Shown here piece after piece: positions 6,320-17,644 of a stretch of 64,000 nucleotides of DNA; the first letter of the stretch is position 1, and every line of letters begins with the position of its first letter. Both the position numbers and the translations under genes were made by a program. Source of the DNA: Deltaproteobacteria bacterium (GTDB lineage Bacteria; Myxococcota_A; UBA9160; SMWR01); NCBI GenBank assembly GCA_032128115.1, contig JAQBHB010000041.1:27753-91752 (forward strand), given 5' to 3'. Below the pieces are notes generated by a model. It did no database searches, was not told where the DNA came from, and worked only from the letters and a program-made list of their open reading frames with translations.

Positions 6320-7180
6320 ATGGCGGAGCGAAGTGTCGTGATCACGGGTGCGTCCACCGGCATTGGCCGGGCGGCCGCCTTGCACATGGATCGACAGGGA
6401 TTCCAGGTGTTTGCGGGCGTGCGCCGCGACGAGGACGCCCGGGCCTTGCGCTCAGCGGCCTCGGCACGGCTCACGCCGCTGATGCTCGACGTCACCGATG
6501 CGACGGGGATCGAGGCAGCGGCGAAGAGCGTCGAGCAGGCGCTCGGCGCAGCCGGGCTCGGGGGTTTGGTCAACAACGCCGGGGTGGGTGTGACGGCGGT
6601 CCAGGAGTTCATCGACCTGGACGAGCTGCGCCGCCAGCTGGAGGTGAACGTGGTGGGCCCGGTGGCAGTGACCCGCGCCTTCCTCCCGCTGCTTCGACTC
6701 GGCGGCGGCCGCGTGGTTCACGTGGGCTCGATGGGCGGCTACAACGCCGCGCCCTTCATGGGGCCCTACGCCGCATCGAAGTTCGCGATCGAGGCGCTCA
6801 CGGACTCCCTGCGGCGCGAACTGCGCCCATGGGGCCTGGAGGTCGCGCTGATCGAGCCGGGCAGCATCGGGACCCCCATCTGGGACAAGGCCCAGTCCTA
6901 CGCCGACGAAGTGCGCAAGGGGCTGTCCGAGCGAGCGCTCGATCTCTACGGCGATCACCTGGACAAGATGGTGAAGTTCGCGGTGTCGGCCTCGCTGCGC
7001 GCGATCCCCGCCGAGAAGGTGGCCGAGGCGATCCACCACGCGCTCACCTCCCCGCGCCCGAGAACCCGTTATCGGGTCGGTTTCGACGCCAAGCTGGTGA
7101 AGTTCCTCACCCGCGTGCTTCCCGACCGGGCGATCGACGCCCTGGTGGCCAGGATGATCGGCATGCCGAAGGGCGGCTGA
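6320..7180 (+). CDS. Short-chain dehydrogenase/reductase (SDR)
   Basis: ATG at 6320 follows GGGAGG. The cofactor motif is VVITGASTGIGRAAA, with NNAG and a YAASK catalytic motif. Confidence 0.9.
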   Translation: MAERSVVITGASTGIGRAAALHMDRQGFQVFAGVRRDEDARALRSAASARLTPLMLDVTDATGIEAAAKSVEQALGAAGLGGLVNNAGVGVTAVQEFIDLDELRRQLEVNVVGPVAVTRAFLPLLRLGGGRVVHVGSMGGYNAAPFMGPYAASKFAIEALTDSLRRELRPWGLEVALIEPGSIGTPIWDKAQSYADEVRKGLSERALDLYGDHLDKMVKFAVSASLRAIPAEKVAEAIHHALTSPRPRTRYRVGFDAKLVKFLTRVLPDRAIDALVARMIGMPKGG

Positions 7181-7195
7181 GTTCGCTCCGAACTC
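7179..7195 (+). terminator. Small stem-loop overlapping the SDR stop codon
   Basis: GAGTTCG-CTC-CGAACTC, a 7-bp perfect stem that begins inside the TGA at 7178-7180. No T-tract follows. Confidence 0.3.
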
Positions 7196-7326
7196 GCCCC
7201 GGAGGCGCCCGCAAGCATGTGACCTGGATCACAAGAATTGTGGGGATACCGACCCATTGAGGGTTCAAGCTGCCGGCCTGCCGCTCCGATCGGTAGGTCC
7301 CCACCTTTTCGGGGGGAGGTTTCGCC

Positions 7327-8745
7327 ATGGATTCGATCTATTTCTGGCCGGACAATCCGGCGGCTTCGATCTGCGCACTGGCCGGGATCAGCATGATCTT
7401 CCTGTGGGCGGCTCGGGAGCCCATGCTCCAGATGCTGCGAAGCCTGGGGAAGGGACTCGAGAGCGGTCTGCGGGCGGTGGCCCGATGGTGCGCAGAGACG
7501 GCCGAGAACCTGCAGCGCCGCAGTACCGAGGCCCTGCTGGCCGCCGGCGAGCTCGAGCTCAACGGCAAGGTCGAGCGCGAGCTCCAGAAGATCGATGGCA
7601 GCTTCGCCCAGAAGGTCGGCCAGTATTCCACGCTCCACCGGCGACTCGACGATCTGCTCAACCACCTGGACACGGACTACAAGAACTGCGGCGACTCGCC
7701 GCCGGACGTGCCGGGTTGGGCACCCGCGGTGGAAGCCGTGGCCAACATCCCGGCCGCCGCCGACCCCAACGTGAAGAAGGTGTTGGAGGGGATCCAGGGC
7801 TCCCTGGAGGACGCCGGGAAGAAGGCCCTCAAGAATTATCGCGACGAGAGCTCCAAGCGGCACGGTCTGCTGAACAAGATGCGGCCGGACTGGAAGGAGG
7901 TTCGCGGCTTGATGGCGCGCATGCAGGACATGGCCGCCAAGGCGCTCCAGATCACCGGAAAGATCGATCGCTTCGTGGACGAGTACGCGCAGGTCCTCAA
8001 GGACCGCGACTCGGCCGCCAAGGCGCTCACGTACTCGGCGTTCAAGCCCTTCATCATCTCGCTGATCGTGATGGGCGTGGCGCTTGGGGGCGCCTTCATC
8101 AACTTCCAGCTGATCGCCCTCCCCATGTCGGAGTTGGTGCCCGCGGGCGCCCGGATCGGCGGGCTCCCGGTCTCCACGGTCTCGGCCCTGGTAATCGTTC
8201 TGATGGAGGCGGCCCTCGGAATCTTCCTGATGGACATGCTGGGCATTACCGACCTGTTTCCGAAGCTCAGCGCGGTGGCGCCTTCGCGGCGCCGGCTGAT
8301 CCTGTGGATGGCGACCCTGGGCCTGTTCTTCCTGGCGTCGGTGGAGAGCTCGCTGGCGATCCTGCGCGAGCAGATCGTCGAGGCCGATGCATTCCTCAAG
8401 CTGTCGTTGGCTGGCGTGGAGAACAACGTTGTGGCGCGGCCCACCTCTTCGTCGATTCCCGTCATCGGGCAGGCGGTGCTTGGCTTCGTGCTGCCCTGGA
8501 TCCTGTCCATGGTGGCGATTCCGCTGGAGATGTTCCTGGACAGTGGCCGTCACGTATTGGCGCGGGCCTCGGTGTTCGCGCTCCACCTGGTGGGTCACGT
8601 GATGACGATTGCAGCGCACCTGGCCAAGTACCTGACGAGCGCGATCCCCAGCATCTACGACGTGTACGTGGCTCTCCCCCTGCGCATCGAGCGGATGATC
8701 CGAAAGGCGGACCCGGTGAGCATCGACGACGCGGAGGTGGCGTGA
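7327..8745 (+). CDS. Hypothetical polytopic membrane protein with a long N-terminal coiled-coil-like soluble region
   Basis: 472 aa. One N-terminal TM helix is followed by ~200 aa of charged, heptad-like sequence and then about 5 TM helices. GGGGGGAGG lies upstream of the ATG. I recognise no family. Confidence 0.6.
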   Translation: MDSIYFWPDNPAASICALAGISMIFLWAAREPMLQMLRSLGKGLESGLRAVARWCAETAENLQRRSTEALLAAGELELNGKVERELQKIDGSFAQKVGQYSTLHRRLDDLLNHLDTDYKNCGDSPPDVPGWAPAVEAVANIPAAADPNVKKVLEGIQGSLEDAGKKALKNYRDESSKRHGLLNKMRPDWKEVRGLMARMQDMAAKALQITGKIDRFVDEYAQVLKDRDSAAKALTYSAFKPFIISLIVMGVALGGAFINFQLIALPMSELVPAGARIGGLPVSTVSALVIVLMEAALGIFLMDMLGITDLFPKLSAVAPSRRRLILWMATLGLFFLASVESSLAILREQIVEADAFLKLSLAGVENNVVARPTSSSIPVIGQAVLGFVLPWILSMVAIPLEMFLDSGRHVLARASVFALHLVGHVMTIAAHLAKYLTSAIPSIYDVYVALPLRIERMIRKADPVSIDDAEVA

Positions 8746-9401
8746 TGAAGCGGGTTCTCGTCTCCCTTGCACTGGGTCTCGCCGTGCTGGGCTGCGACTC
8801 GCGCCGATACGACCAGGCGATCGGTGTACTGATCGACGTGTCGGGAACCTATTCGGACCAGCGCGCCGAGACGGTCAACGTGATCAAGCGCGAGGTCCTT
8901 CCGCACATGGTGCCCGGCGATACCCTGCTGGTGGTTCGCATCGACAGTGAGAGCTACGACCAGGAGAACGTGGAAGCCCTGCTCACCCTGGACCACCGGC
9001 CCTCCCACGCCAACGCCCAGAAGCTGGCCATGGCCCACAAGCTCGACGCCTTCGCCAAACAGCCGGTGAACGCGCGTCACACGGACATCCCGGGCGCCAT
9101 GATGTTGACGTCGGAATACCTGAACGAGATCGGCAGTGGGAGCCGCGTGATGCTGATCTTCAGCGACATGCAAGAGGATCTGCCTCCGGGCTCCAAGCGC
9201 GACCTGACGTCCGACGAGCTGCAGGGGACCCACGTGGTGGCCATGAACGTGAAGCGCCTCCAGCACGACACCGTCGACCCGGCGGTATTCCGCGATCGCC
9301 TGGAAACCTGGGGAGAACGGGTGACGGCAGCGGGCGCGGTCGAGTGGCGCACGTTCATGGACGCGACAAAGCTTCCGGACTATCTGGCGACGATCCGGTA
9401 G
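8745..9401 (+). CDS. Lipoprotein with a VWA/MIDAS-like fold (hypothetical)
   Basis: The ATG at 8745 overlaps the upstream TGA (TGATG). The lipobox is LAVLGC. A DxSxT MIDAS-like motif (VLIDVSGTYSD) is followed by alternating beta-strand and helix pattern (LLVVRID, VMLIFSDMQED). Confidence 0.55.
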   Translation: MKRVLVSLALGLAVLGCDSRRYDQAIGVLIDVSGTYSDQRAETVNVIKREVLPHMVPGDTLLVVRIDSESYDQENVEALLTLDHRPSHANAQKLAMAHKLDAFAKQPVNARHTDIPGAMMLTSEYLNEIGSGSRVMLIFSDMQEDLPPGSKRDLTSDELQGTHVVAMNVKRLQHDTVDPAVFRDRLETWGERVTAAGAVEWRTFMDATKLPDYLATIR

Positions 9402-9437: not shown

Positions 9438-11096
9438 TCAGCCGTTCCAGCGCTTCGCTTCTTCGATCATGTGGTTGGCGACGCGGTATGCGTTGGCAAG
9501 GATGGTGAGGGTGGGGTTGTAACCGCCCGACGTGGGGAAGCAGCTCCCGTCCACCACCCACAGATTCGGTACGTCGTGGGCCCGGCACCAGCGGTCGAGC
9601 ACCGATCTGGTGGGATCGTCGCCCATGCGGCACGTGCCGTGCACGTGGGCGCTGCCCTTCATGGCCGTCTGCTCGTCGATCCGGGTCACGCCCGGAATCT
9701 GGAGCAGCCACTTGCGGGAGGCTCCGCAGGCGTCTGCCAGGTCCGGCAGCTGCTCCGCGTACCAGCGATTCATGGCGATGTCGTTCGGGTGCTGGCGGTG
9801 GGTGATGCGCGCCACCGGCAGGCCGTCCGCATCCACCACCTCGGGATCCAGATCGACCCGGTTCTCCGGCATGGGTAGATCCTCGAGAATGCTCCCGATG
9901 GTGATGGCCCGCGGGAAATCGCGCAGGAATCGCTTGAGATCTGCCCCCCAGCTTCGGGTGAGTTCCGGATCGCCCTGGTTGCTCAGGGCGTAGACGATGG
10001 GCTGGCGCGTGAAGGAGTTCACCTCGGCCACGACCCCGCCGCGGATGAAGCCTCGGCTGGCGTCGCTGGGATGGAAGTCGTCGATGGCGCGATAGGCCTC
10101 GATTCCGGTGACACCCAGGGCAGGTTCGTCCACCAGGAATCGTATGGCGGCGTGGTGGTGCAGCATCAGGTTCCGGCCCACGAGACCACTCGAATTGGCG
10201 AGGCCCTCTGGAAACGATCCCGACCGGGACGAAAGCAACAGGAGCGGCGACCCGATGGCGCTGCAGGCGACCACCACCCGCCGCGCCCGCACCTCGTGGA
10301 GGTTGCCGTTCGCGTCCAGGTAACGCGCACCCCGAACGCGACCGTCCCCAGCGACTGGAAGATCGAAGACCCTGGCGTTGGGACGCAGGTCCAGCCGGCC
10401 GGTGGCCCGGGCGCGCGGCAGGCAGACCGACAGGGTCGAGGCCTTGGCGTGGATGGCGCACCCGTAGCCCTGGCATGCGCCGCCATAGCTGCAACCGCTG
10501 CGTCCCTGGTAGTTCGACGGGTTGATGGCGACGGGAAGCGGAAACGGGTGGTGGCCCAGCGCGCGCGCGCCTCGTTCGAAGATCCGGCTGGAAATGCGCT
10601 CCGGATGGGGCGCGTGGGGATACTCGGCCGCCTGGGGTGGTGCGAATGGATTGGCGCCGCGCCGGCCCGCCACACCGAAATCGCGCTCGGCGCGCGCATA
10701 CCCGGGCTCGAGTTCGTCGTAGCCAAGGGGCCAATCGGCCAGGCTCGCGCCAGACACCGGCCCTTCGCTCGAGAGCACCCGGAAATCGTCCTCGCGGAAT
10801 CGCCACGACCAGCCCGACCAGCGGGTCATGCTGCCCCCCACCGCGTGGGCGAGCTGGTTGTAGCGGCCGGGCACGGCGGGCTCGCCCGGGTCGTGGCGAT
10901 AGGTCTCGAGCTGATCCGGGGCAAAGAGCCGATCGCGGACGATGACCTCGAGCTCGTCATCCACGAACTGGCTGCTGGAGAGTTCGGGTCCGCGCTGCAG
11001 GGCCACCACCCGGAATCCCGCCTCCGCGAGCTCCTGGATCATCACACCGCCGCCCGCGCCGGTTCCGATCACGCAGACGTCGAACTCGGCCCGCAC
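9438..11096 (-). CDS. GMC family FAD-dependent oxidoreductase
   Basis: The N-terminal FAD fold is FDVCVIGTGAGGGVMIQELAEAGFRVVALQRG, and the C-terminal region is GMC-like (HVHGTCRMG, NLWVVDGSCFPTSGGYNPTLT). The start was set to GTG at 11096, preceded by GGAGGAGG. Confidence 0.85.
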   Translation of the reverse strand: MRAEFDVCVIGTGAGGGVMIQELAEAGFRVVALQRGPELSSSQFVDDELEVIVRDRLFAPDQLETYRHDPGEPAVPGRYNQLAHAVGGSMTRWSGWSWRFREDDFRVLSSEGPVSGASLADWPLGYDELEPGYARAERDFGVAGRRGANPFAPPQAAEYPHAPHPERISSRIFERGARALGHHPFPLPVAINPSNYQGRSGCSYGGACQGYGCAIHAKASTLSVCLPRARATGRLDLRPNARVFDLPVAGDGRVRGARYLDANGNLHEVRARRVVVACSAIGSPLLLLSSRSGSFPEGLANSSGLVGRNLMLHHHAAIRFLVDEPALGVTGIEAYRAIDDFHPSDASRGFIRGGVVAEVNSFTRQPIVYALSNQGDPELTRSWGADLKRFLRDFPRAITIGSILEDLPMPENRVDLDPEVVDADGLPVARITHRQHPNDIAMNRWYAEQLPDLADACGASRKWLLQIPGVTRIDEQTAMKGSAHVHGTCRMGDDPTRSVLDRWCRAHDVPNLWVVDGSCFPTSGGYNPTLTILANAYRVANHMIEEAKRWNG

Positions 11097-11175: not shown

Positions 11176-14100
11176 ATGACCCTTCGCTGCCCCGCCTGCG
11201 ACCACGAGAACCGATCGGGCCGTCGCTTCTGCACCGAGTGCGGCTCGGGTCTCCCCCACCCGTGTCCGGCGTGCGGCGCCGAGAACGAGACCCGCGACAA
11301 ATTCTGCGGCCAGTGCGGAGCGGCGCTCGTCGCGGGTCGGACCTACGCAGCGCCGACCTCCGCCGAGGCGGCGCCCGCCCCTCGCGACTACACCCCCCGG
11401 CACCTGGCCGAGAAGATTCTCACTTCGAAGAGTTCCCTGGAAGGCGAGCGCAAGAACGTCACGGTGCTCTTCGCCGACGTGGCCGGCTACACCTCGATTG
11501 CCGAGGCCTCGGACCCGGAAGCCATGCACGCGCTCATGGATCGCTTCTTCCAGCGCGTGCTGGCCGAGGTACACCGGGTCGAAGGCACGGTAAACCAGTT
11601 CACCGGCGACGGTGTGATGGCGCTGTTCGGGGCGCCGATTGCCCTGGAAGACGCGCCGCGGCGCGCCGTGTTGGCCGCCCGCGCAATCCAGCGGGCCATC
11701 GAGCCCCTGGGCGACGAAGTCCGCGAACGCCTGGGTGTGGACTTCCGCGTGCGCATCGGGATCCACACCGGGCCGGTGGTGGTGGGGCGCATCGGCGACG
11801 ACCTGCGCATGGACTACACGGCTGTGGGGGATACCACGAACCTGGCCGCACGCCTGCAGCAGTTGGCCGAACCCGGCGCGATCTTGATCTCCAGGGCCAC
11901 CCAGCAACGGGTCGACCCGTTCTTCGAATTGACCGACCTGGGAGAGCTGGCCGTGAAGGGCAAGGCGCAACCGGTTCGCGCCTTCCAGGTCGGGGCCGAA
12001 CGCCCGGTGAGCGGTCGCGTGGAAGCGGGCGCCGGCGCGGGCCTCACGCCGCTGGTGGGGCGCGAGCGCGATCTGGCGACCGTGGCGTCGGCCTTCGACG
12101 CCGCCAGGAGCGGACGCGGCCAGGTGGCATTCCTGGTGGGCGACGCGGGCATCGGAAAATCGCGTCTTCTCTACGAGTTCCGGAGTCGGCTGGCCGATCG
12201 ACCCCACACCTGGTTCGAGGGACGCTGCGCGGCGTACGCGCGAGCCAGCGCCTTCCAGCCCGTCGTGGACGGCCTGAAGCGACTCTTCGGAATCGAAGAC
12301 CGCGACGACGACGCCAGCATGCTCGCCAAGATCGATGACGGCATCGCGGCGGCACCCGGCGAACTGGCCTGGACGATCCCATTCGTGCGCGTGCTGCTCT
12401 CGCTACCCGCCGGGGATCCCGCCGTCGAAGCCATGGACGCCGCCGGACGCCGCAGCGAGAGCATCCGCGCGTTGTACGCCTTCTTCTTCGCCTACGCTGA
12501 GGCCGCCCCCCTGGTGTTCGTGATCGAGGACCTGCACTGGATCGACCCGGCGTCCGAGGAATTCCTGGGCTTCCTGTCGGATTCGCTGCCAGCCTCCAAG
12601 GTGCTCGCGGTCTACACCCACCGCCCGGGCTATCGCCACCCCCTCGGTGACCGCAGCTACCACGTGCGGGTGGCGTTGCAGCCGCTCTCGACCCACGAGA
12701 TGACGACCATGGCCGGAGTCCTGATGGAATCGGGAAGGCTTCCGGAGGCGCTGGGGGAGTTGATCGCCTCCAAGGCCGAGGGAAATCCATTCTTCGTCGA
12801 AGAAGTCACCAAGTCGCTGCTTGACGACGGGGCTGTTCGCATCGTCGACGGCAGAGTCGAGCTGGCGCGCGATCTCTCGGAGATCTCGGTGCCTGACAGC
12901 ATTCACGACGTCTTGATGGCGCGAATCGACCGACTGTCCGACGAGCCCAAGCACGCCATCCAGGTGGCCTCCGTCATCGGTCGCGAGTTTGCCCTGCGCC
13001 TGCTGCAGCGCATCACCGACGCAGGCGACGCGGCGTCGGCGGCGGTAGAGGAGCTGCGCTCGCTCGAGCTGATCTACGAGAAAGCGGCGCACCCGGAACT
13101 GGCGTTCATGTTCAAGCACGCGCTCACCCACGACGTGGCGTACGAGAGTGTCCTGGTCCAGCGGCGGCGGGCCCTGCACCAGATCGTGGGGACCGCCATC
13201 GAGGACCTCTACCAGGATCGCCTGGCCGAACACTACGAATCGCTGGCGCACCACTTCGCCCGGGCCGAAGACTGGGAGCGGGCGTTCCTCTACCACGGGC
13301 AGGCCGCCGAGAAGGCCGCCGCCGCCTACGCGAACCATTCGGCGGCCGAGCACTACCGGGAGGCCCTGGCCATCGCCGGGCGCCTGGGCGACAGCGTGTC
13401 CCGATCGCTTCTGCAACGGCTGAGCGAGGGGCTGGGCAGCGTGCTGTGGCTGCTGTCGTATTTCGATCAATCGGGCGATGCCCAGCTGCGCTCCGCCGAG
13501 TGGGCCGACAACCCTGCGACGCGCGCCCGGAACCTGGCCTGGGCAGGCCACGGGAAACTCTGGGGCCACGACTACGCCGAGGCTCGCGCGTGCGCCGAGC
13601 GTGCCATCGAAGTCTCCCGCGAACACGACCTGCCCGGCGCCCATGCCCTGGCCCTCGCCTGTCTGGACGAAGACGACCTGGTGCACGGGCGCGTCACCGA
13701 CGACTCGCTGGCGGCCGAGGCCATGCGCCTGGCGGAGATCTCGGGCGACCCGGAGGCCCGGATCCTGGCCCTGCAGCAGATGTTGCAGCGCCTGGAGTGG
13801 CGGGGGGAATTCCGCGAGGCCCTGAAGGTGGGCAAAGCCGCCATCGCCATCGCGCAGGAAAAGCGGCTCAGTACCCTTGCAGTGTTTCCGTCGTGGTTCT
13901 GCGGGCTCGCACTCACCTGCCTGGGCGATTACGGAACGGCGCTCGAGTGGATGCAGGGTTCGCTGGACGTGTGCGGGCGCCTGGGCGACCGCGCACTCTC
14001 GGCGCGGGTGCTCAATACCCTGGGCTGGTGCTATGCGGAGTTCGGCGCACACGATCGCGCCAGCGAGTTCAACCGCCGCGGCGAGGAGATGGCCCGCGAG

Positions 14101-14706
14101 ATCGTAGAGCTACAGGTGGTGGCGAGCGCTCCGGAGCTCCACGCCAACGCCGCGATCAACCTGGCCGGCAACTACGTGGCCATGGGAGATCCGGAGCGTG
14201 CCGACGCCCTGGTGCTGCCCATCCGGGAAGAGCTATCCAAGCCTGGCGATCCGTGGCAACGCTGGCGCTACTCCATGCATGTCAGCCACGCGTTGGCCCG
14301 GGTGGCGCTGGCGCGGCACGACCCGGAGACGGTGCTGCGACTCACCCAGGAGGAGTTGGACGCCGCCCGGGCCAACCCCTCGCGAAAGATCGAGGCACGG
14401 GCGCTCGAGCTTCGCGGTCGCGCCCTCCTGATGAAGGACGAGCGAGACGTCGCCGAGGAAACCCTGCACCGGGCGCTCGAGATCGCCGTCGCCATCGAGT
14501 ACCCGCCGGTCCAGTGGCGCGCCCACGCACTCCTGGCGGAGCTCTGGCGCCGGCGTGACGACGCGCCCCGGGTGGAACGCAGCCTGGCCTCGGTGCGCAC
14601 GCTGATCCGGCACCTGGGCAGGTCCATCCCCGACCCGGATCTCCAGCGCGGGTTCCGGGGGCTGGCCGATCGCCTGGAAGCCGACCCGTTCGCCGCCTGT
14701 CGCTGA
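11176..14706 (+). CDS. Double zinc-ribbon / class III adenylate-guanylate cyclase / AAA(STAND) ATPase / TPR signalling protein
   Basis: 1176 aa. Zinc ribbons: CPACDHENRSGRRFCTECG...CPACGAENETRDKFCGQCG. Cyclase core: VTVLFADVAGYTSIAE, FTGDGVMALFGAP, RIGIHTGPVVVG. P-loop: LVGDAGIGKSRL. The C-terminal half is a long TPR-like helical region. Confidence 0.9.
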   Translation: MTLRCPACDHENRSGRRFCTECGSGLPHPCPACGAENETRDKFCGQCGAALVAGRTYAAPTSAEAAPAPRDYTPRHLAEKILTSKSSLEGERKNVTVLFADVAGYTSIAEASDPEAMHALMDRFFQRVLAEVHRVEGTVNQFTGDGVMALFGAPIALEDAPRRAVLAARAIQRAIEPLGDEVRERLGVDFRVRIGIHTGPVVVGRIGDDLRMDYTAVGDTTNLAARLQQLAEPGAILISRATQQRVDPFFELTDLGELAVKGKAQPVRAFQVGAERPVSGRVEAGAGAGLTPLVGRERDLATVASAFDAARSGRGQVAFLVGDAGIGKSRLLYEFRSRLADRPHTWFEGRCAAYARASAFQPVVDGLKRLFGIEDRDDDASMLAKIDDGIAAAPGELAWTIPFVRVLLSLPAGDPAVEAMDAAGRRSESIRALYAFFFAYAEAAPLVFVIEDLHWIDPASEEFLGFLSDSLPASKVLAVYTHRPGYRHPLGDRSYHVRVALQPLSTHEMTTMAGVLMESGRLPEALGELIASKAEGNPFFVEEVTKSLLDDGAVRIVDGRVELARDLSEISVPDSIHDVLMARIDRLSDEPKHAIQVASVIGREFALRLLQRITDAGDAASAAVEELRSLELIYEKAAHPELAFMFKHALTHDVAYESVLVQRRRALHQIVGTAIEDLYQDRLAEHYESLAHHFARAEDWERAFLYHGQAAEKAAAAYANHSAAEHYREALAIAGRLGDSVSRSLLQRLSEGLGSVLWLLSYFDQSGDAQLRSAEWADNPATRARNLAWAGHGKLWGHDYAEARACAERAIEVSREHDLPGAHALALACLDEDDLVHGRVTDDSLAAEAMRLAEISGDPEARILALQQMLQRLEWRGEFREALKVGKAAIAIAQEKRLSTLAVFPSWFCGLALTCLGDYGTALEWMQGSLDVCGRLGDRALSARVLNTLGWCYAEFGAHDRASEFNRRGEEMAREIVELQVVASAPELHANAAINLAGNYVAMGDPERADALVLPIREELSKPGDPWQRWRYSMHVSHALARVALARHDPETVLRLTQEELDAARANPSRKIEARALELRGRALLMKDERDVAEETLHRALEIAVAIEYPPVQWRAHALLAELWRRRDDAPRVERSLASVRTLIRHLGRSIPDPDLQRGFRGLADRLEADPFAACR

Positions 14707-16774: not shown

Positions 16775-17644
16775 GTGAAATTCATCACGTCGCTGGCCTT
16801 CCAGGACCCCACCCACGCCTGCTCCGTGGCGCGGGTCGCCGACGAGTGCGGCTGGGACGGAGTCATGGTCTCGGACCATGTCGTGCACCCGGAGAAGATC
16901 GAGTCGCCCTATCCCTATACCCGGGATGGCGCTCCCCGTTGGGAGGCGCCGGCTCCCTGGCCCGACCCCTGGGTCGCCATCGGCGCGATGGCCGCAGTGA
17001 CCGAGCGGCTGCGCTTCTACACCGGCATCTACGTGCTGCCCCTGCGCAATCCCTTCGTCGTGGCCAAAGCCATCGGAACGGCGGCCGTCATGTCGAACAA
17101 CCGCGTGGTGCTTGGCGTGGGCGCGGGATGGATGCGCGAGGAGTTCGAGCTGCTGGAACAGGGCTTTCGGCAGCGAGGCCGGCGCATGGACGAAATGATC
17201 CAGGTGATCCGCCTTCTCTGGGGCGGCGGCATGGTGGAGCACCACGGCGAGTTCTACGACTTCGATCGCCTCCAGATGAGCCCGGCGCCCAGTGAGCCGA
17301 TTCCCCTGTTGGCGGGCGGCCTGTCCGAGCCGGCGCTGCGCCGCGTGGGTCGCCTGGGCGACGGTTGGATCTCCGATATCCACACCCGCGAGGAACTCCG
17401 TCAGATCGTGGAACGCATCCGCGCCTATCGGGCCGAGTACGGTCGTGCGGACGAGTCCCTGCAGATCGTGGCCGCCTGCTCCGACACCTTCGACGTGGAC
17501 GGCTTTCGCCGCCTGGAGGACGCGGGCGTCACCCACCTGCAGACCATGCCCTGGTTCTTGTACGGCGGCTCCTCCGATTCCCTGCAGGACAAGATCGACG
17601 GCCTGCGCCGCTTCGCCGACCAGATCATCGCCAAGCTGCGTTAG
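16775..17644 (+). CDS. Luciferase-like monooxygenase (LLM) family, F420-dependent-type oxidoreductase
   Basis: GTG at 16775, in frame within ORF 16685..17644. LLM-like sequence includes CGWDGVMVSDHV, RLRFYTGIYVLPLRNP and GVGAGWMREEFE. Confidence 0.75.
   Translation: MKFITSLAFQDPTHACSVARVADECGWDGVMVSDHVVHPEKIESPYPYTRDGAPRWEAPAPWPDPWVAIGAMAAVTERLRFYTGIYVLPLRNPFVVAKAIGTAAVMSNNRVVLGVGAGWMREEFELLEQGFRQRGRRMDEMIQVIRLLWGGGMVEHHGEFYDFDRLQMSPAPSEPIPLLAGGLSEPALRRVGRLGDGWISDIHTREELRQIVERIRAYRAEYGRADESLQIVAACSDTFDVDGFRRLEDAGVTHLQTMPWFLYGGSSDSLQDKIDGLRRFADQIIAKLR

What the first reader, a model, noticed from the sequence alone, without database searches (positions are those of the whole stretch)
7327..9401. 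Translationally coupled pair of unknown function: coiled-coil polytopic membrane protein plus MIDAS-like lipoprotein
Seen in the sequence: the 472-aa protein has one N-terminal TM helix, about 200 aa of charged helical sequence and about five C-terminal TM helices. Its stop codon overlaps the ATG of a 218-aa lipoprotein (TGATG at 8743-8747). The lipoprotein has the lipobox LAVLGC and a DxSxT motif (VLIDVSGTYSD), followed by beta-alpha alternation suggestive of a VWA fold. I recognise neither protein as a member of a named family. Inference: this is a two-component envelope module, for example a membrane sensor or channel with a metal-dependent adhesion or ligand-binding partner. Pairs of VWA domains with membrane partners recur in stress and defence contexts, but nothing here proves such a role.
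Basis: partly seen in the sequence, partly recalled or inferred. Interest (0 to 1): 0.6.

Follow-up and report, generated by a model that had tools for sequence, protein, structure and literature searches.

The report
Conserved membrane protein plus VWA lipoprotein operon
Two overlapping genes encode an unannotated inner-membrane protein with a long cytoplasmic helical stalk and a small metal-site (VWA/MIDAS) lipoprotein; the two are always found together in Myxococcota and Gammaproteobacteria, so this is a real but functionally uncharacterised envelope module.

Summary
A (7327-8745, 472 aa) and B (8745-9401, 218 aa) are real genes with a 1-nt stop/start overlap, and each has its own GGAGG.

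B is a lipoprotein; the lipobox Cys is kept in 78/78 orthologues. Its AlphaFold model (pLDDT 88.8) matches only VWA domains in the PDB. All five MIDAS residues (D31, S33, T35, T113, D141) are kept in every orthologue where the position is readable. Even so, B falls below Pfam VWA thresholds.

A has no match in Pfam, NCBIfam, PADLOC, PDB sequences or PDB folds. Its predicted topology is N-out: TM1, a ~210-aa cytoplasmic helical hairpin, then four strongly conserved TM helices carrying acidic residues.

B follows A directly in 77 of 77 testable genomes from two phyla, and no other neighbour is conserved. More distant A relatives sometimes lack B, and most of those have lost Glu269 in the conserved periplasmic loop.

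A CRP-type palindrome (7218-7233) lies upstream. It is conserved in 32 of 34 loci of the window's clade.

Function is inferred, not shown. The most likely reading is an inner-membrane complex in which B's MIDAS face docks on A's periplasmic acidic loop. No evidence points to a defence role. Interest is moderate.

The parts
7218..7233 (+). Perfect CRP-type palindrome TGTGACCTGGATCACA, 94 nt upstream of A's ATG, in the 146-nt gap after the SDR gene. Putative operator of a CRP/FNR-family regulator.
   Evidence: It is the only perfect copy in the 64 kb window. A GTGA-N6-TCAC core with <=1 mismatch lies 62-114 nt upstream of A in 32/34 loci of the >=55%-identity Myxococcota clade. The chance expectation is 0.03 per locus. 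The consensus is as given in PMC10187061.
7249..7253 (+). CCGAC box. A conserved CCGA[CT] lies 15-20 nt downstream of the palindrome. It may be part of a -10-like element, which would centre the palindrome near -41 (class II geometry). This is inference.
   Evidence: Seen in the motif-anchored listing of upstream regions.
7315..7319 (+). GGAGG ribosome-binding site of A, 7 nt before the ATG.
   Evidence: Read from the sequence.
7327..8745 (+). Gene A: a 472-aa polytopic inner-membrane protein of an unannotated family.
7357..7413 (+). A TM1 (aa ~11-29). The N-terminal tail (aa 1-10) has no Lys/Arg and is predicted periplasmic. R30 follows TM1 and is 95% conserved across the superfamily.
7414..8037 (+). 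A cytoplasmic helical hairpin (aa 30-237), made of helices 30-119 and 147-237. The conserved tip, aa 120-146, reads CGDSPPxVPGW, and W131 is 93% conserved across the superfamily.
   Evidence: AlphaFold pLDDT is mostly 70-91 along the two helices. Charge distribution; conservation.
8047..8523 (+). A membrane core (aa 241-399, TM2-TM5). This is the most conserved part of the protein (0.87-0.99 column conservation in the helices and first loop, lower in the linkers). It carries E294 (mid TM3), an acidic residue at 303 (100% D/E), E340 and E401.
8116..8169 (+). A periplasmic loop 1 (aa 264-281, ALPMSELVPAGARIGGLP). Glu269 (codon 8131-8133) is kept in 80/80 genome loci. Candidate docking site for B.
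   Evidence: E269 tracks the presence of B among distant relatives.
8733..8737 (+). GGAGG ribosome-binding site of B, located inside the 3' end of A.
   Evidence: Read from the sequence.
8745..9401 (+). Gene B: a 218-aa lipoprotein with a divergent VWA domain.
8745..8795 (+). B signal peptide and lipobox (MKRVLVSLALGLAVLG|C17). Only about 6 residues separate Cys17 from the first beta-strand.
   Evidence: Cys is conserved in 78/78. Signal-peptide and lipobox sequences are listed; strand 24-31 comes.
8835..8849 (+). MIDAS motif 1, D31-V-S33-G-T35, at the C-terminal end of strand beta1.
   Evidence: Kept in 77/77 orthologues. It aligns with the DxSxS strand of E. coli YfbK and ViaA.
9081..9086 (+). 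MIDAS Thr113 (with Asp114) in the loop before helix 115-129.
   Evidence: Kept in 76/76. Secondary structure.
9165..9167 (+). MIDAS Asp141, just after strand 133-139 (IFSD).
   Evidence: Kept in 77/77. Secondary structure.

Best explanation
SHOWN. A and B form a self-contained two-gene operon with its own conserved CRP-type operator. It encodes an inner-membrane protein (A) and a lipid-anchored periplasmic VWA domain with an intact metal-ion-dependent adhesion site (B).

INFERRED. The two proteins form a complex at the periplasmic face of the inner membrane.
- B is tethered by only ~6 residues. Through its MIDAS-bound divalent cation, it binds an acidic side chain of A's near-invariant periplasmic loop. 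Glu269 in LPMSEL is the best candidate.
- This would resemble the way integrin I-domains bind ligand carboxylates, or the way the alpha2-delta VWA domain clamps onto an extracellular loop of Cav channels.
- A's membrane core is its functional centre. It is better conserved than the cytoplasmic hairpin. It carries acidic or polar residues at the periplasmic side (N259, Q261, E269, E340, E348, Q382), at mid-membrane (E294) and at the cytoplasmic side (D/E303, E401).
- I therefore read A as a cation-conducting or cation-sensing oligomer. The 13-nm cytoplasmic helical stalk and its conserved tip would then gate it or couple it to a cytoplasmic partner.
- B would act as a metal-dependent auxiliary or regulatory cap.
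- In the window's clade, expression is set by a CRP/FNR-family regulator.
For: Co-conservation.
- B follows A on the same strand in 77/80 loci. The other 3 contigs end less than 300 nt after A.
- Stop/start overlaps or gaps of at most 30 nt are the rule.
- No third gene is conserved.
- The pairing persists down to 29-31% identity of A and in a still more distant representative (L086).
- One A-B fusion protein, P0260, keeps B's signal peptide as a linker. This fits a cytoplasmic C-terminus for A.

B.
- AlphaFold pLDDT 88.8, pTM 0.84.
- All 50 listed Foldseek hits contain VWA domains (E down to 1e-6; 131 hits at E<=1e-3), including TFIIH p44, integrin I domains, NorD, CMG2 and BatA/B.
- MIDAS residues and the lipobox Cys are invariant.

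A.
- Topology comes from hydropathy plus the positive-inside rule, with roughly 17 Lys/Arg on the predicted inside and 4 outside.
- The TM2-loop-TM3 and TM5 regions show 91-99% column conservation, against 50-80% in the hairpin.
- Position 303 is acidic in 93/93 diverse representatives. E401 is at 88%, and E294 and E340 are at 65% each.

E269 and B.
- E269 is kept in 80/80 B-linked loci and in all 4 distant B-positive cases.
- It is lost in 6 of 7 distant B-negative cases. My own Fisher calculation gives about 0.015. It is not corrected for phylogeny.

Operator.
Against: - No experiment exists.
- A's AlphaFold model is only moderate (pLDDT 70.9, pTM 0.42; about 50-67 across most of TM2-TM4) and has no fold match. 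'Channel' therefore rests only on residue patterns.
- By the E. coli +2 rule, B's sorting signal suggests outer-membrane targeting in the gammaproteobacterial orthologues (Cys-Ser/Thr-Asp). That would put B out of reach of A's short loops.
- Two distant partners have a degenerate MIDAS or none, yet still pair with an E269-bearing A (L086, L094). One B-less A keeps E269 (P0350). The Glu-MIDAS link is therefore not strict.
- The residues conserved across the whole superfamily lie mostly on the cytoplasmic side (R30, W131, R178, R322, Y444-D445). The core function of A may therefore not be periplasmic.
Confidence: 0.35

Rival explanations
1. Transmembrane signalling or scaffolding device that does not conduct ions. 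B is a periplasmic ligand or metal sensor. A relays B's occupancy through the membrane to the long cytoplasmic hairpin, and the conserved proline-rich tip (CGDSPPxVPGW) recruits a cytoplasmic partner. The geometry would resemble a chemoreceptor hairpin.
For: - The two ~90-residue antiparallel helices have a conserved tip.
- Superfamily-wide invariant residues concentrate on the cytoplasmic side and in the hairpin.
- The diverse A profile gives weak hits to chemoreceptor cytoplasmic domains (2ch7, E 0.002).
- In a few gammaproteobacterial loci the pair lies divergent from a response regulator and histidine kinase (clusters 11 and 22).
Against: - The chemoreceptor hits are at the level of coiled-coil composition, and there is no Pfam MCPsignal hit.
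- TM helices of signalling receptors are usually poorly conserved (established knowledge). Here they are the best-conserved part.
- No cytoplasmic partner gene is conserved nearby.
Confidence: 0.25
2. B works away from A. It is an outer-membrane or surface VWA adhesin, or a periplasmic metal-binding protein. The operon link reflects co-regulation or a biogenesis role of A, not a stable complex.
For: - The +2 residue after the lipid-modified Cys is Ser or Thr in 32/33 gammaproteobacterial orthologues. Under the E. coli rule this is not an inner-membrane retention signal.
- VWA lipoproteins that act as outer-membrane adhesins exist in Myxococcota, for example CglB (PMC9946355, listed).
- Some A relatives exist without B.
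Against: - Adjacency is 77/77 across two phyla, with overlapping or near-abutting reading frames.
- A's periplasmic loop Glu is lost mainly where B is absent.
- One fusion protein exists.
- B has only a ~6-residue tether and no Cys-rich or extended stalk that would suit a surface adhesin.
- Lipoprotein sorting rules outside Enterobacteria are not the E. coli +2 rule (established knowledge).
Confidence: 0.15
3. Anti-phage or conflict system. A is a membrane-disrupting effector and B a VWA sensor, as in vWA-containing conflict systems.
For: It is a compact two-gene module with variable neighbours. VWA domains do occur in conflict systems (PMC7159879, listed).
Against: - No PADLOC hit for either protein.
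- No NTPase or MoxR partner.
- Conservation is high (59-92% among the 119 closest homologue clusters) and identity bands follow the taxonomy named in the records.
- Flanking genes are metabolic in the window, and housekeeping (secDF, glyA) next to some B-less relatives.
- GC3 matches the host.
- B is exported, so it cannot see cytoplasmic phage components.
- The conserved CRP-type operator suggests physiological regulation.
Confidence: 0.04

Closest known systems
VWA (von Willebrand factor A) / integrin I-domain superfamily with MIDAS, e.g. Pfam VWA_2 PF13519, Bacteroides BatA/BatB (PDB 4jdu, 3ibs), NorD VWA (9qh8), CMG2/TEM8
   Same: B has the alpha/beta fold and the same strand and helix order. 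D-x-S-x-T lies after beta1, Thr lies before the helix at 115-129, and Asp lies after beta4.
   Different: - B scores below Pfam thresholds. The window protein has no hit, and 14/40 relatives reach at best E 3.8e-4.
- TM-scores are only 0.42-0.55.
- No helix lies between strands 133-139 and 162-167.
- B is a stand-alone 200-aa lipoprotein with no MoxR/AAA+ partner and no TM anchor.
Cav channel alpha2-delta subunit (VWA/MIDAS auxiliary subunit bound to an extracellular loop of the pore subunit; PDB 9vlg is among the Foldseek hits)
   Same: This is the functional analogy behind the proposed mechanism: an extracytoplasmic, membrane-tethered MIDAS VWA domain paired with a polytopic membrane protein that offers a conserved acidic loop.
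   Different: There is no homology between A and Cav alpha1. B lacks Cache domains. The analogy rests on my own knowledge of alpha2-delta and was not tested here.
MotA/ExbB/TolQ stator proteins (N-out, TM helices extending into long cytoplasmic helices)
   Same: The gross layout is shared: an N-out first TM, a long cytoplasmic helical insertion between TM1 and TM2, a C-terminal TM helix that continues into the cytoplasm, and conserved acidic residues in the membrane.
   Different: hhalign probability against E. coli ExbB and TolQ is below 1%. No Foldseek hit. A has two extra TM helices. The partner B has no Asp-bearing TM helix.
CorA / MIT metal-ion channels
   Same: A long cytoplasmic stalk helix runs into a TM helix, followed by a conserved periplasmic loop with Met-Pro/Glu-Leu (A: NFQLIALPMSEL; CorA, from memory: GMNF..MPEL).
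   Different: hhalign probability against E. coli CorA is 0.4%. There is no GMN motif, no alpha/beta N-domain, and the TM count differs.
McaA/McaB of Magnetospirillum (PMC9512821) and CglB of Myxococcus (PMC9946355)
   Same: These are bacterial envelope systems in which a VWA/MIDAS protein works with membrane proteins.
   Different: No sequence relationship was found. These papers only surfaced in a text search and were not read in full.

Membership tests
VWA / MIDAS superfamily (protein B) | Rossmann-like alpha/beta fold with a central beta-sheet flanked by helices | tested here: met
   AlphaFold model with pLDDT 88.8. Foldseek against the PDB gives 131 hits at E<=1e-3, and all 50 listed contain VWA domains with probability 1.00.
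VWA / MIDAS superfamily (protein B) | MIDAS residues DxSxS...T...D at the C-terminal ends of beta1, the loop before helix 115-129, and beta4 | tested here: met
   D31, S33 and T35 are kept in 77/77 orthologues, T113 in 76/76 and D141 in 77/77.
VWA / MIDAS superfamily (protein B) | Match to a curated VWA profile above its threshold | tested here: not met
   The window protein has no Pfam or NCBIfam hit at E<=1. Among relatives, 14/40 hit VWA_2 at best E 3.8e-4, all below the gathering score. B is a divergent subfamily.
VWA / MIDAS superfamily (protein B) | Divalent cation bound at the MIDAS | not testable with these tools
   Needs a crystal structure, ITC or similar.
Bacterial lipoprotein (protein B) | N-terminal signal peptide with a lipobox and invariant Cys | tested here: met
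   MKRVLVSLALGLAVLG-C17. Cys is present in 78/78 aligned orthologues, and the sequences are listed.
Bacterial lipoprotein (protein B) | Membrane of residence (inner or outer) | tested here: inconclusive
   The +2 residue is Asp in the window. It is Ser or Thr in 32/33 gammaproteobacterial orthologues and variable in Myxococcota. The +3 residue is Asp in 32/33 gammaproteobacterial and 23/45 myxobacterial orthologues. Sorting rules for these phyla are not established.
MotA/ExbB/TolQ 5:2 stator family (protein A) | Sequence or fold homology to MotA/ExbB/TolQ | tested here: not met
   hhalign probability is 0.05% for ExbB and 0.9% for TolQ. No Pfam hit. No Foldseek hit.
MotA/ExbB/TolQ 5:2 stator family (protein A) | Partner with a single TM helix carrying a conserved Asp (MotB/ExbD/TolR) | tested here: not met
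   B is a lipoprotein. Its only hydrophobic segment is the cleavable signal peptide, which has no Asp.
CorA / MIT channels (protein A) | Homology to CorA and a GMN motif at the end of the pore helix | tested here: not met
   hhalign probability 0.4%. No GMN motif in the alignment.
YhgE/Pip/EsaA-type proteins (1 TM + extracytoplasmic coiled coil + 5 TM) | The large helical insertion lies outside the cytoplasm; match to the YhgE/Pip profile | tested here: not met
   The positive-inside rule puts residues 30-237 in the cytoplasm. No Pfam or NCBIfam hit. Topology is predicted, not measured.
Known anti-phage defence systems (PADLOC-DB) | Match of either protein to a defence-system model | tested here: not met
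   No hit at E<=1 for either protein.
CRP/FNR-type operator (upstream site 7218-7233) | Palindrome TGTGA-N6-TCACA upstream of the promoter | tested here: met
   Perfect match in the window. The core is conserved in 32/34 clade loci at -62 to -114. Consensus from PMC10187061.
CRP/FNR-type operator (upstream site 7218-7233) | Bound by a CRP-family protein; effector identity | not testable with these tools
   Needs EMSA, ChIP or a reporter assay. The regulator gene was not identified.

The most novel reading that the evidence does not exclude
A defines a new class of oligomeric inner-membrane cation channel or transducer with no structural relative. It has five TM helices and a 13-nm cytoplasmic three-helix stalk. 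In a large subclade it has recruited a dedicated MIDAS-VWA lipoprotein as an extracytoplasmic metal-dependent gate or sensor. This would be a bacterial counterpart, by convergence, of the alpha2-delta/Cav arrangement, placed under cyclic-nucleotide (CRP-type) control.
Probability: 0.2. Interest if true: 0.75.

Novelty: new variant of a known kind. Interest (0 to 1): 0.5.

Why it matters
Protein A belongs to a sizeable family: 767 clusters at 50% identity, spread over at least two phyla. The family has no annotation, no domain model and no structural relative. Its membrane core is conserved to a degree usually seen in channels, transporters or enzymes.

Protein B shows that a minimal MIDAS VWA domain can be a dedicated lipoprotein partner of such a membrane protein without any AAA+/MoxR component. 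That arrangement differs from the known bacterial VWA systems.

If the two do form a metal-bridged complex, this would be a new way for bacteria to couple a periplasmic metal or ligand site to a membrane device. It would also provide a tractable two-gene system with clear point mutants to test (E269, D31/S33/T35, E294).

At present it is a well-defined unknown rather than a surprise. Its value is as a candidate for structure determination and for family annotation.

Tried and rejected
- Named family for A. Searches of Pfam, NCBIfam and PADLOC on the window protein and on up to 9 distant relatives found nothing.
- Solved relative of A. PDB sequence-profile searches with a close alignment and a diverse alignment gave only coiled-coil-level hits. 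Foldseek found nothing at E<=1e-3.
- CorA-like channel. The idea came from NF...PMSEL resembling GMNF..MPEL. hhalign gave 0.4%, so it was rejected.
- ExbB/TolQ-like stator. The idea came from the shared topology. hhalign gave less than 1%, so it was rejected.
- Internal duplication in A (TM2-3 against TM4-5, or helix 1 against helix 2). No signal.
- Riboswitch or other RNA element near the pair. Rfam gave only one sub-threshold sRNA hit inside B.
- Sigma-70 promoter or intrinsic terminator. None found near the pair.
- Conserved third gene. Clustering all flanking ORFs of 81 loci gave no family present in more than 10 loci, apart from antisense shadow ORFs.
- Paralogues in the window. None.
- Link to FtsZ-like/VWA operons (PMC2875224). 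No such genes are nearby.
- Strict correlation of E294 or E340 with B. Not supported; only E269 tracks B.
- hhalign of B against E. coli YfbK and ViaA. Probability was low with single-sequence templates, although the only aligned stretch was the MIDAS strand.
- Source organism.
Full report
1. THE OBSERVATION.

The two ORFs exist as described. A is 7327-8745 (+), 472 aa. B is 8745-9401 (+), 218 aa. The stop of A (TGA 8743-8745) and the start of B (ATG 8745-8747) share one base. A GGAGG lies 7 nt upstream of each start, at 7315-7319 and 8733-8737. Third-position GC is 0.90 for A and 0.86 for B, like the neighbouring SDR gene at 0.89. The long ORFs on other frames (7257-9401 +, 7069-8772 -) are the usual shadow ORFs of a 68% GC genome. 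A has at least 1283 homologous clusters and B has 963, nearly all labelled 'hypothetical'. These are real genes.

2. PROTEIN B.

None of Pfam, NCBIfam and PADLOC recognises the window protein at E<=1. A profile of 40 relatives finds nothing among PDB sequences. Among those 40 relatives, 14 give weak VWA_2 hits that fall below threshold (best E 3.8e-4).

The AlphaFold model is confident (pLDDT 88.8, pTM 0.84). Foldseek against the PDB returns 131 hits at E<=1e-3. All 50 listed contain VWA domains: TFIIH p44/Ssl1, integrin I domains, NorD, CMG2/TEM8 and BatA/BatB. TM-scores are 0.42-0.55.

The element order is beta1(24-31)-alpha(34-54)-beta(60-66)-beta(76-81)-alpha(86-105)-alpha(115-129)-beta(133-139)-beta(162-167)-alpha(173-195)-beta(200-204)-alpha(207-217). 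This places D31-x-S33-x-T35 right after beta1, T113 before helix 115-129, and D141 right after strand 133-139. That is the classical MIDAS arrangement.

In 77 orthologues taken from genomes of two phyla, these residues are invariant wherever the position is readable. The lipobox Cys is present in 78/78. Only about six residues separate the lipidated Cys from beta1, so the domain must sit close to the membrane that anchors it.

Which membrane that is remains open. The +2 residue is Asp in the window protein. It is Ser or Thr in 32/33 gammaproteobacterial orthologues.

3. PROTEIN A.

No curated family matches the window protein or nine distant relatives. PDB sequence-profile searches give only coiled-coil-level noise.

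The AlphaFold model is moderate (pLDDT 70.9, pTM 0.42). It is mostly 70-91 along the two long helices and about 50-67 across most of TM2-TM4, which is what one expects for an obligate oligomer. It has no Foldseek match at E<=1e-3.

Family-averaged hydropathy plus the positive-inside rule give the following topology:
- N-terminal tail outside, with no Lys/Arg.
- TM1, about residues 11-29.
- Cytoplasmic antiparallel hairpin: helices 30-119 and 147-237, with a conserved tip CGDSPPxVPGW.
- TM2, residues 241-263.
- Periplasmic loop 264-281 (ALPMSELVPAGARxGGxPV, about 99% conserved).
- TM3, residues 282-304.
- Positively charged cytoplasmic loop, including RRR at 321-323.
- TM4, residues 324-343.
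- Periplasmic amphipathic helix, residues 344-376.
- TM5, residues 377-399, continuing as a long cytoplasmic helix to the C-terminus.

The membrane core is the best-conserved part of the protein, at 0.87-0.99 column conservation in the helices and first loop (lower in the linkers), against 0.5-0.8 in the hairpin.

A whole-library HMM search finds 767 clusters at 50% identity (254 at E<=1e-30), almost all with the same full-length architecture. Across 92 diverse full-length representatives (22-57% identical to A), several residues stay conserved: R30, W131, R178, L182, G298, an acidic residue at 303 (93/93), T308, R322, E401 (88%), R408, Y444-D445 and E455. E269, E294 and E340 are kept in 65-72%.

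I tested homology to CorA, ExbB and TolQ because of superficial resemblances. All three were rejected, with hhalign probabilities below 1%. No internal repeat is detectable.

4. THE PAIR.

A scan of one genome per species returned 80 loci. These came from Myxococcota MAGs (48-74% identity) and from Gammaproteobacteria, including Thiohalomonadaceae (38-43%). B lies immediately downstream on the same strand in 77 of them. In the other three, the contig ends less than 300 nt after A.

About 30 of 76 junctions are 4-nt overlaps, and most others are gaps of 6-30 nt (my start-codon picking was crude). Clustering all flanking ORFs shows no other conserved neighbour. The next-best family occurs in 10 of 81 loci, and the top three apparent families are antisense shadows. 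In the window the neighbours are an SDR, a Rieske protein, a GMC oxidoreductase and a cyclase-AAA16-TPR protein.

One library protein, P0260 (685 aa), is A fused to B through B's intact signal peptide. This fits a cytoplasmic C-terminus for A, but as a single case it could be a sequencing artefact.

5. DISTANT RELATIVES.

I looked up the context of eleven distant A representatives and screened it with a B profile HMM.
- Three have a recognisable B downstream: P0290, P0382 and P0388.
- One, P0373, has an overlapping 195-aa exported protein that lacks a MIDAS.
- Seven have no B within the flanks: P0390, P0358, P0328, P0314, P0286, P0301 and P0350. Two of these lie between secDF and glyA.

Every B-positive case, including the P0260 fusion, has Glu at position 269 of A. 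Six of the seven B-negative cases have another residue there (D, G, D, N, Q, P). My own Fisher calculation gives about 0.015 and is not corrected for phylogeny. E294 and E340 do not track B.

The distant B of P0388 has a degenerate MIDAS (LDAEGV). The MIDAS is therefore invariant in the window's large clade but is not an absolute requirement for pairing.

The 146-nt gap upstream of A holds a perfect TGTGA-N6-TCACA at 7218-7233. It is the only perfect copy in 64 kb. A GTGA-N6-TCAC core with at most one mismatch lies 62-114 nt upstream of A's start in 32 of 34 loci of the >=55%-identity Myxococcota clade. The background rate predicts 0.03 per locus, giving a binomial P of about 4e-47, uncorrected for relatedness.

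A CCGA[CT] box follows 15-20 nt downstream. If that box belongs to a -10 element, the palindrome is centred near -41, which is the class II CRP geometry (PMC10187061). This step is inference.

The site is absent from the 48-49% clade (L034-L040) and is sporadic in Gammaproteobacteria. Rfam finds no riboswitch.

7. INTERPRETATION.

Shown: a self-contained, vertically stable operon. It encodes a polytopic inner-membrane protein of an unannotated family and a MIDAS-VWA lipoprotein, and in the window's clade it sits behind a CRP-type operator.

Inferred (confidence about 0.35): B docks through its MIDAS cation on the acidic periplasmic loop of A, with Glu269 the best candidate. A's highly conserved, acid-studded membrane core conducts or senses cations, and the cytoplasmic stalk gates or couples it.

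Main rivals:
- A non-conducting signalling or scaffold device (0.25).
- B acting away from A at the outer membrane (0.15).
- A defence system (0.04). There are no PADLOC hits, the context is metabolic, the composition is native, and B is exported.

The remaining probability covers functions not yet conceived.

8. NOVELTY.

B is a divergent new subfamily of a very well-known fold. A is a sizeable family without annotation or a structural relative. I did not find the A-B pairing described in the literature searched. I rate it a new variant of a known theme (a VWA/MIDAS protein working with a membrane partner), of moderate interest. It would become much more interesting if A proves to be a new type of channel or transducer.

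Noticed in passing
window 7218-7233 (and 7249-7253): Perfect CRP-type palindrome TGTGACCTGGATCACA upstream of gene A. It is conserved at -62 to -114 in 32/34 related Myxococcota loci and is followed by a conserved CCGA[CT] box. This implies control by a CRP/FNR-family regulator.
   Followed up: yes
window 7097-7110, 10009-10022, 16775-16788: The GTGA-N6-TCAC core occurs 4 times in the window against 0.7 expected. These three extra copies lie in coding sequence: the SDR 3' end, the GMC gene, and apparently the start of an ORF. I took them to be incidental.
   Followed up: partly
window 11176-14706 (+): A 1176-aa protein with double zinc ribbon, class III nucleotidyl cyclase, AAA_16 ATPase and MalT-like TPR domains. 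It lies 1.8 kb from a CRP-type operator but is not conserved next to the pair elsewhere.
   Followed up: no
P0260 (library protein, 685 aa): A single in-frame fusion of an A homologue to a B homologue, joined through B's intact signal peptide and lipobox. It could be a natural Rosetta-stone fusion or a sequencing or frameshift artefact.
   Followed up: partly
L094:5425-6012 and L086:6431-7051: Distant A homologues are followed by overlapping genes for exported proteins of 195 and 206 aa. One has no MIDAS (LLVDPAAAAA) and the other a degenerate one (LDAEGV). The partner can therefore lose its metal site while keeping the pairing.
   Followed up: partly
L089/L090 5001-6377; L092 1345-2817: B-less A homologues sit between secD-secF and glyA-nrdR-ribD, a housekeeping neighbourhood. 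Another B-less lineage (L084, L095; NCBI assemblies GCA_000225005.2 and GCA_000377945.1) has a FabA-like gene, a 106-aa ORF, A and a rhodanese.
   Followed up: no
L034-L040, about 100 nt upstream of the A homologue: The 48-49%-identity Myxococcales clade lacks the CRP-type site. It shares a different, nearly identical upstream block (...CCTCGCAGACTCACATCCCGGGCTCCTAACCTCTGGAGCTTGTTGGTTCGCT...). This may be another promoter or leader element, or may simply reflect close relatedness.
   Followed up: no
L052, L058, L071, L077, L080 (upstream of A, opposite strand): In a gammaproteobacterial subgroup the pair lies divergent from a response regulator with an OmpR-like C-terminus and a ~510-aa histidine-kinase-like protein (clusters 11 and 22; sequences). 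The domain assignments were made by eye, not by profile search.
   Followed up: no
L081 1-5556: A distant A-B pair (P0290) lies divergent from a complete cbb3 oxidase cluster (ccoNOQP, FixG, FixH and a P-type ATPase).
   Followed up: no
window 7069-8772 (-) and 7257-9401 (+): ORFs of 567 and 714 aa overlap genes A and B on other frames. Their 'homologues' in other loci are antisense shadows (clusters 1-3). This is a caution for automated gene calling in this GC-rich genome.
   Followed up: yes
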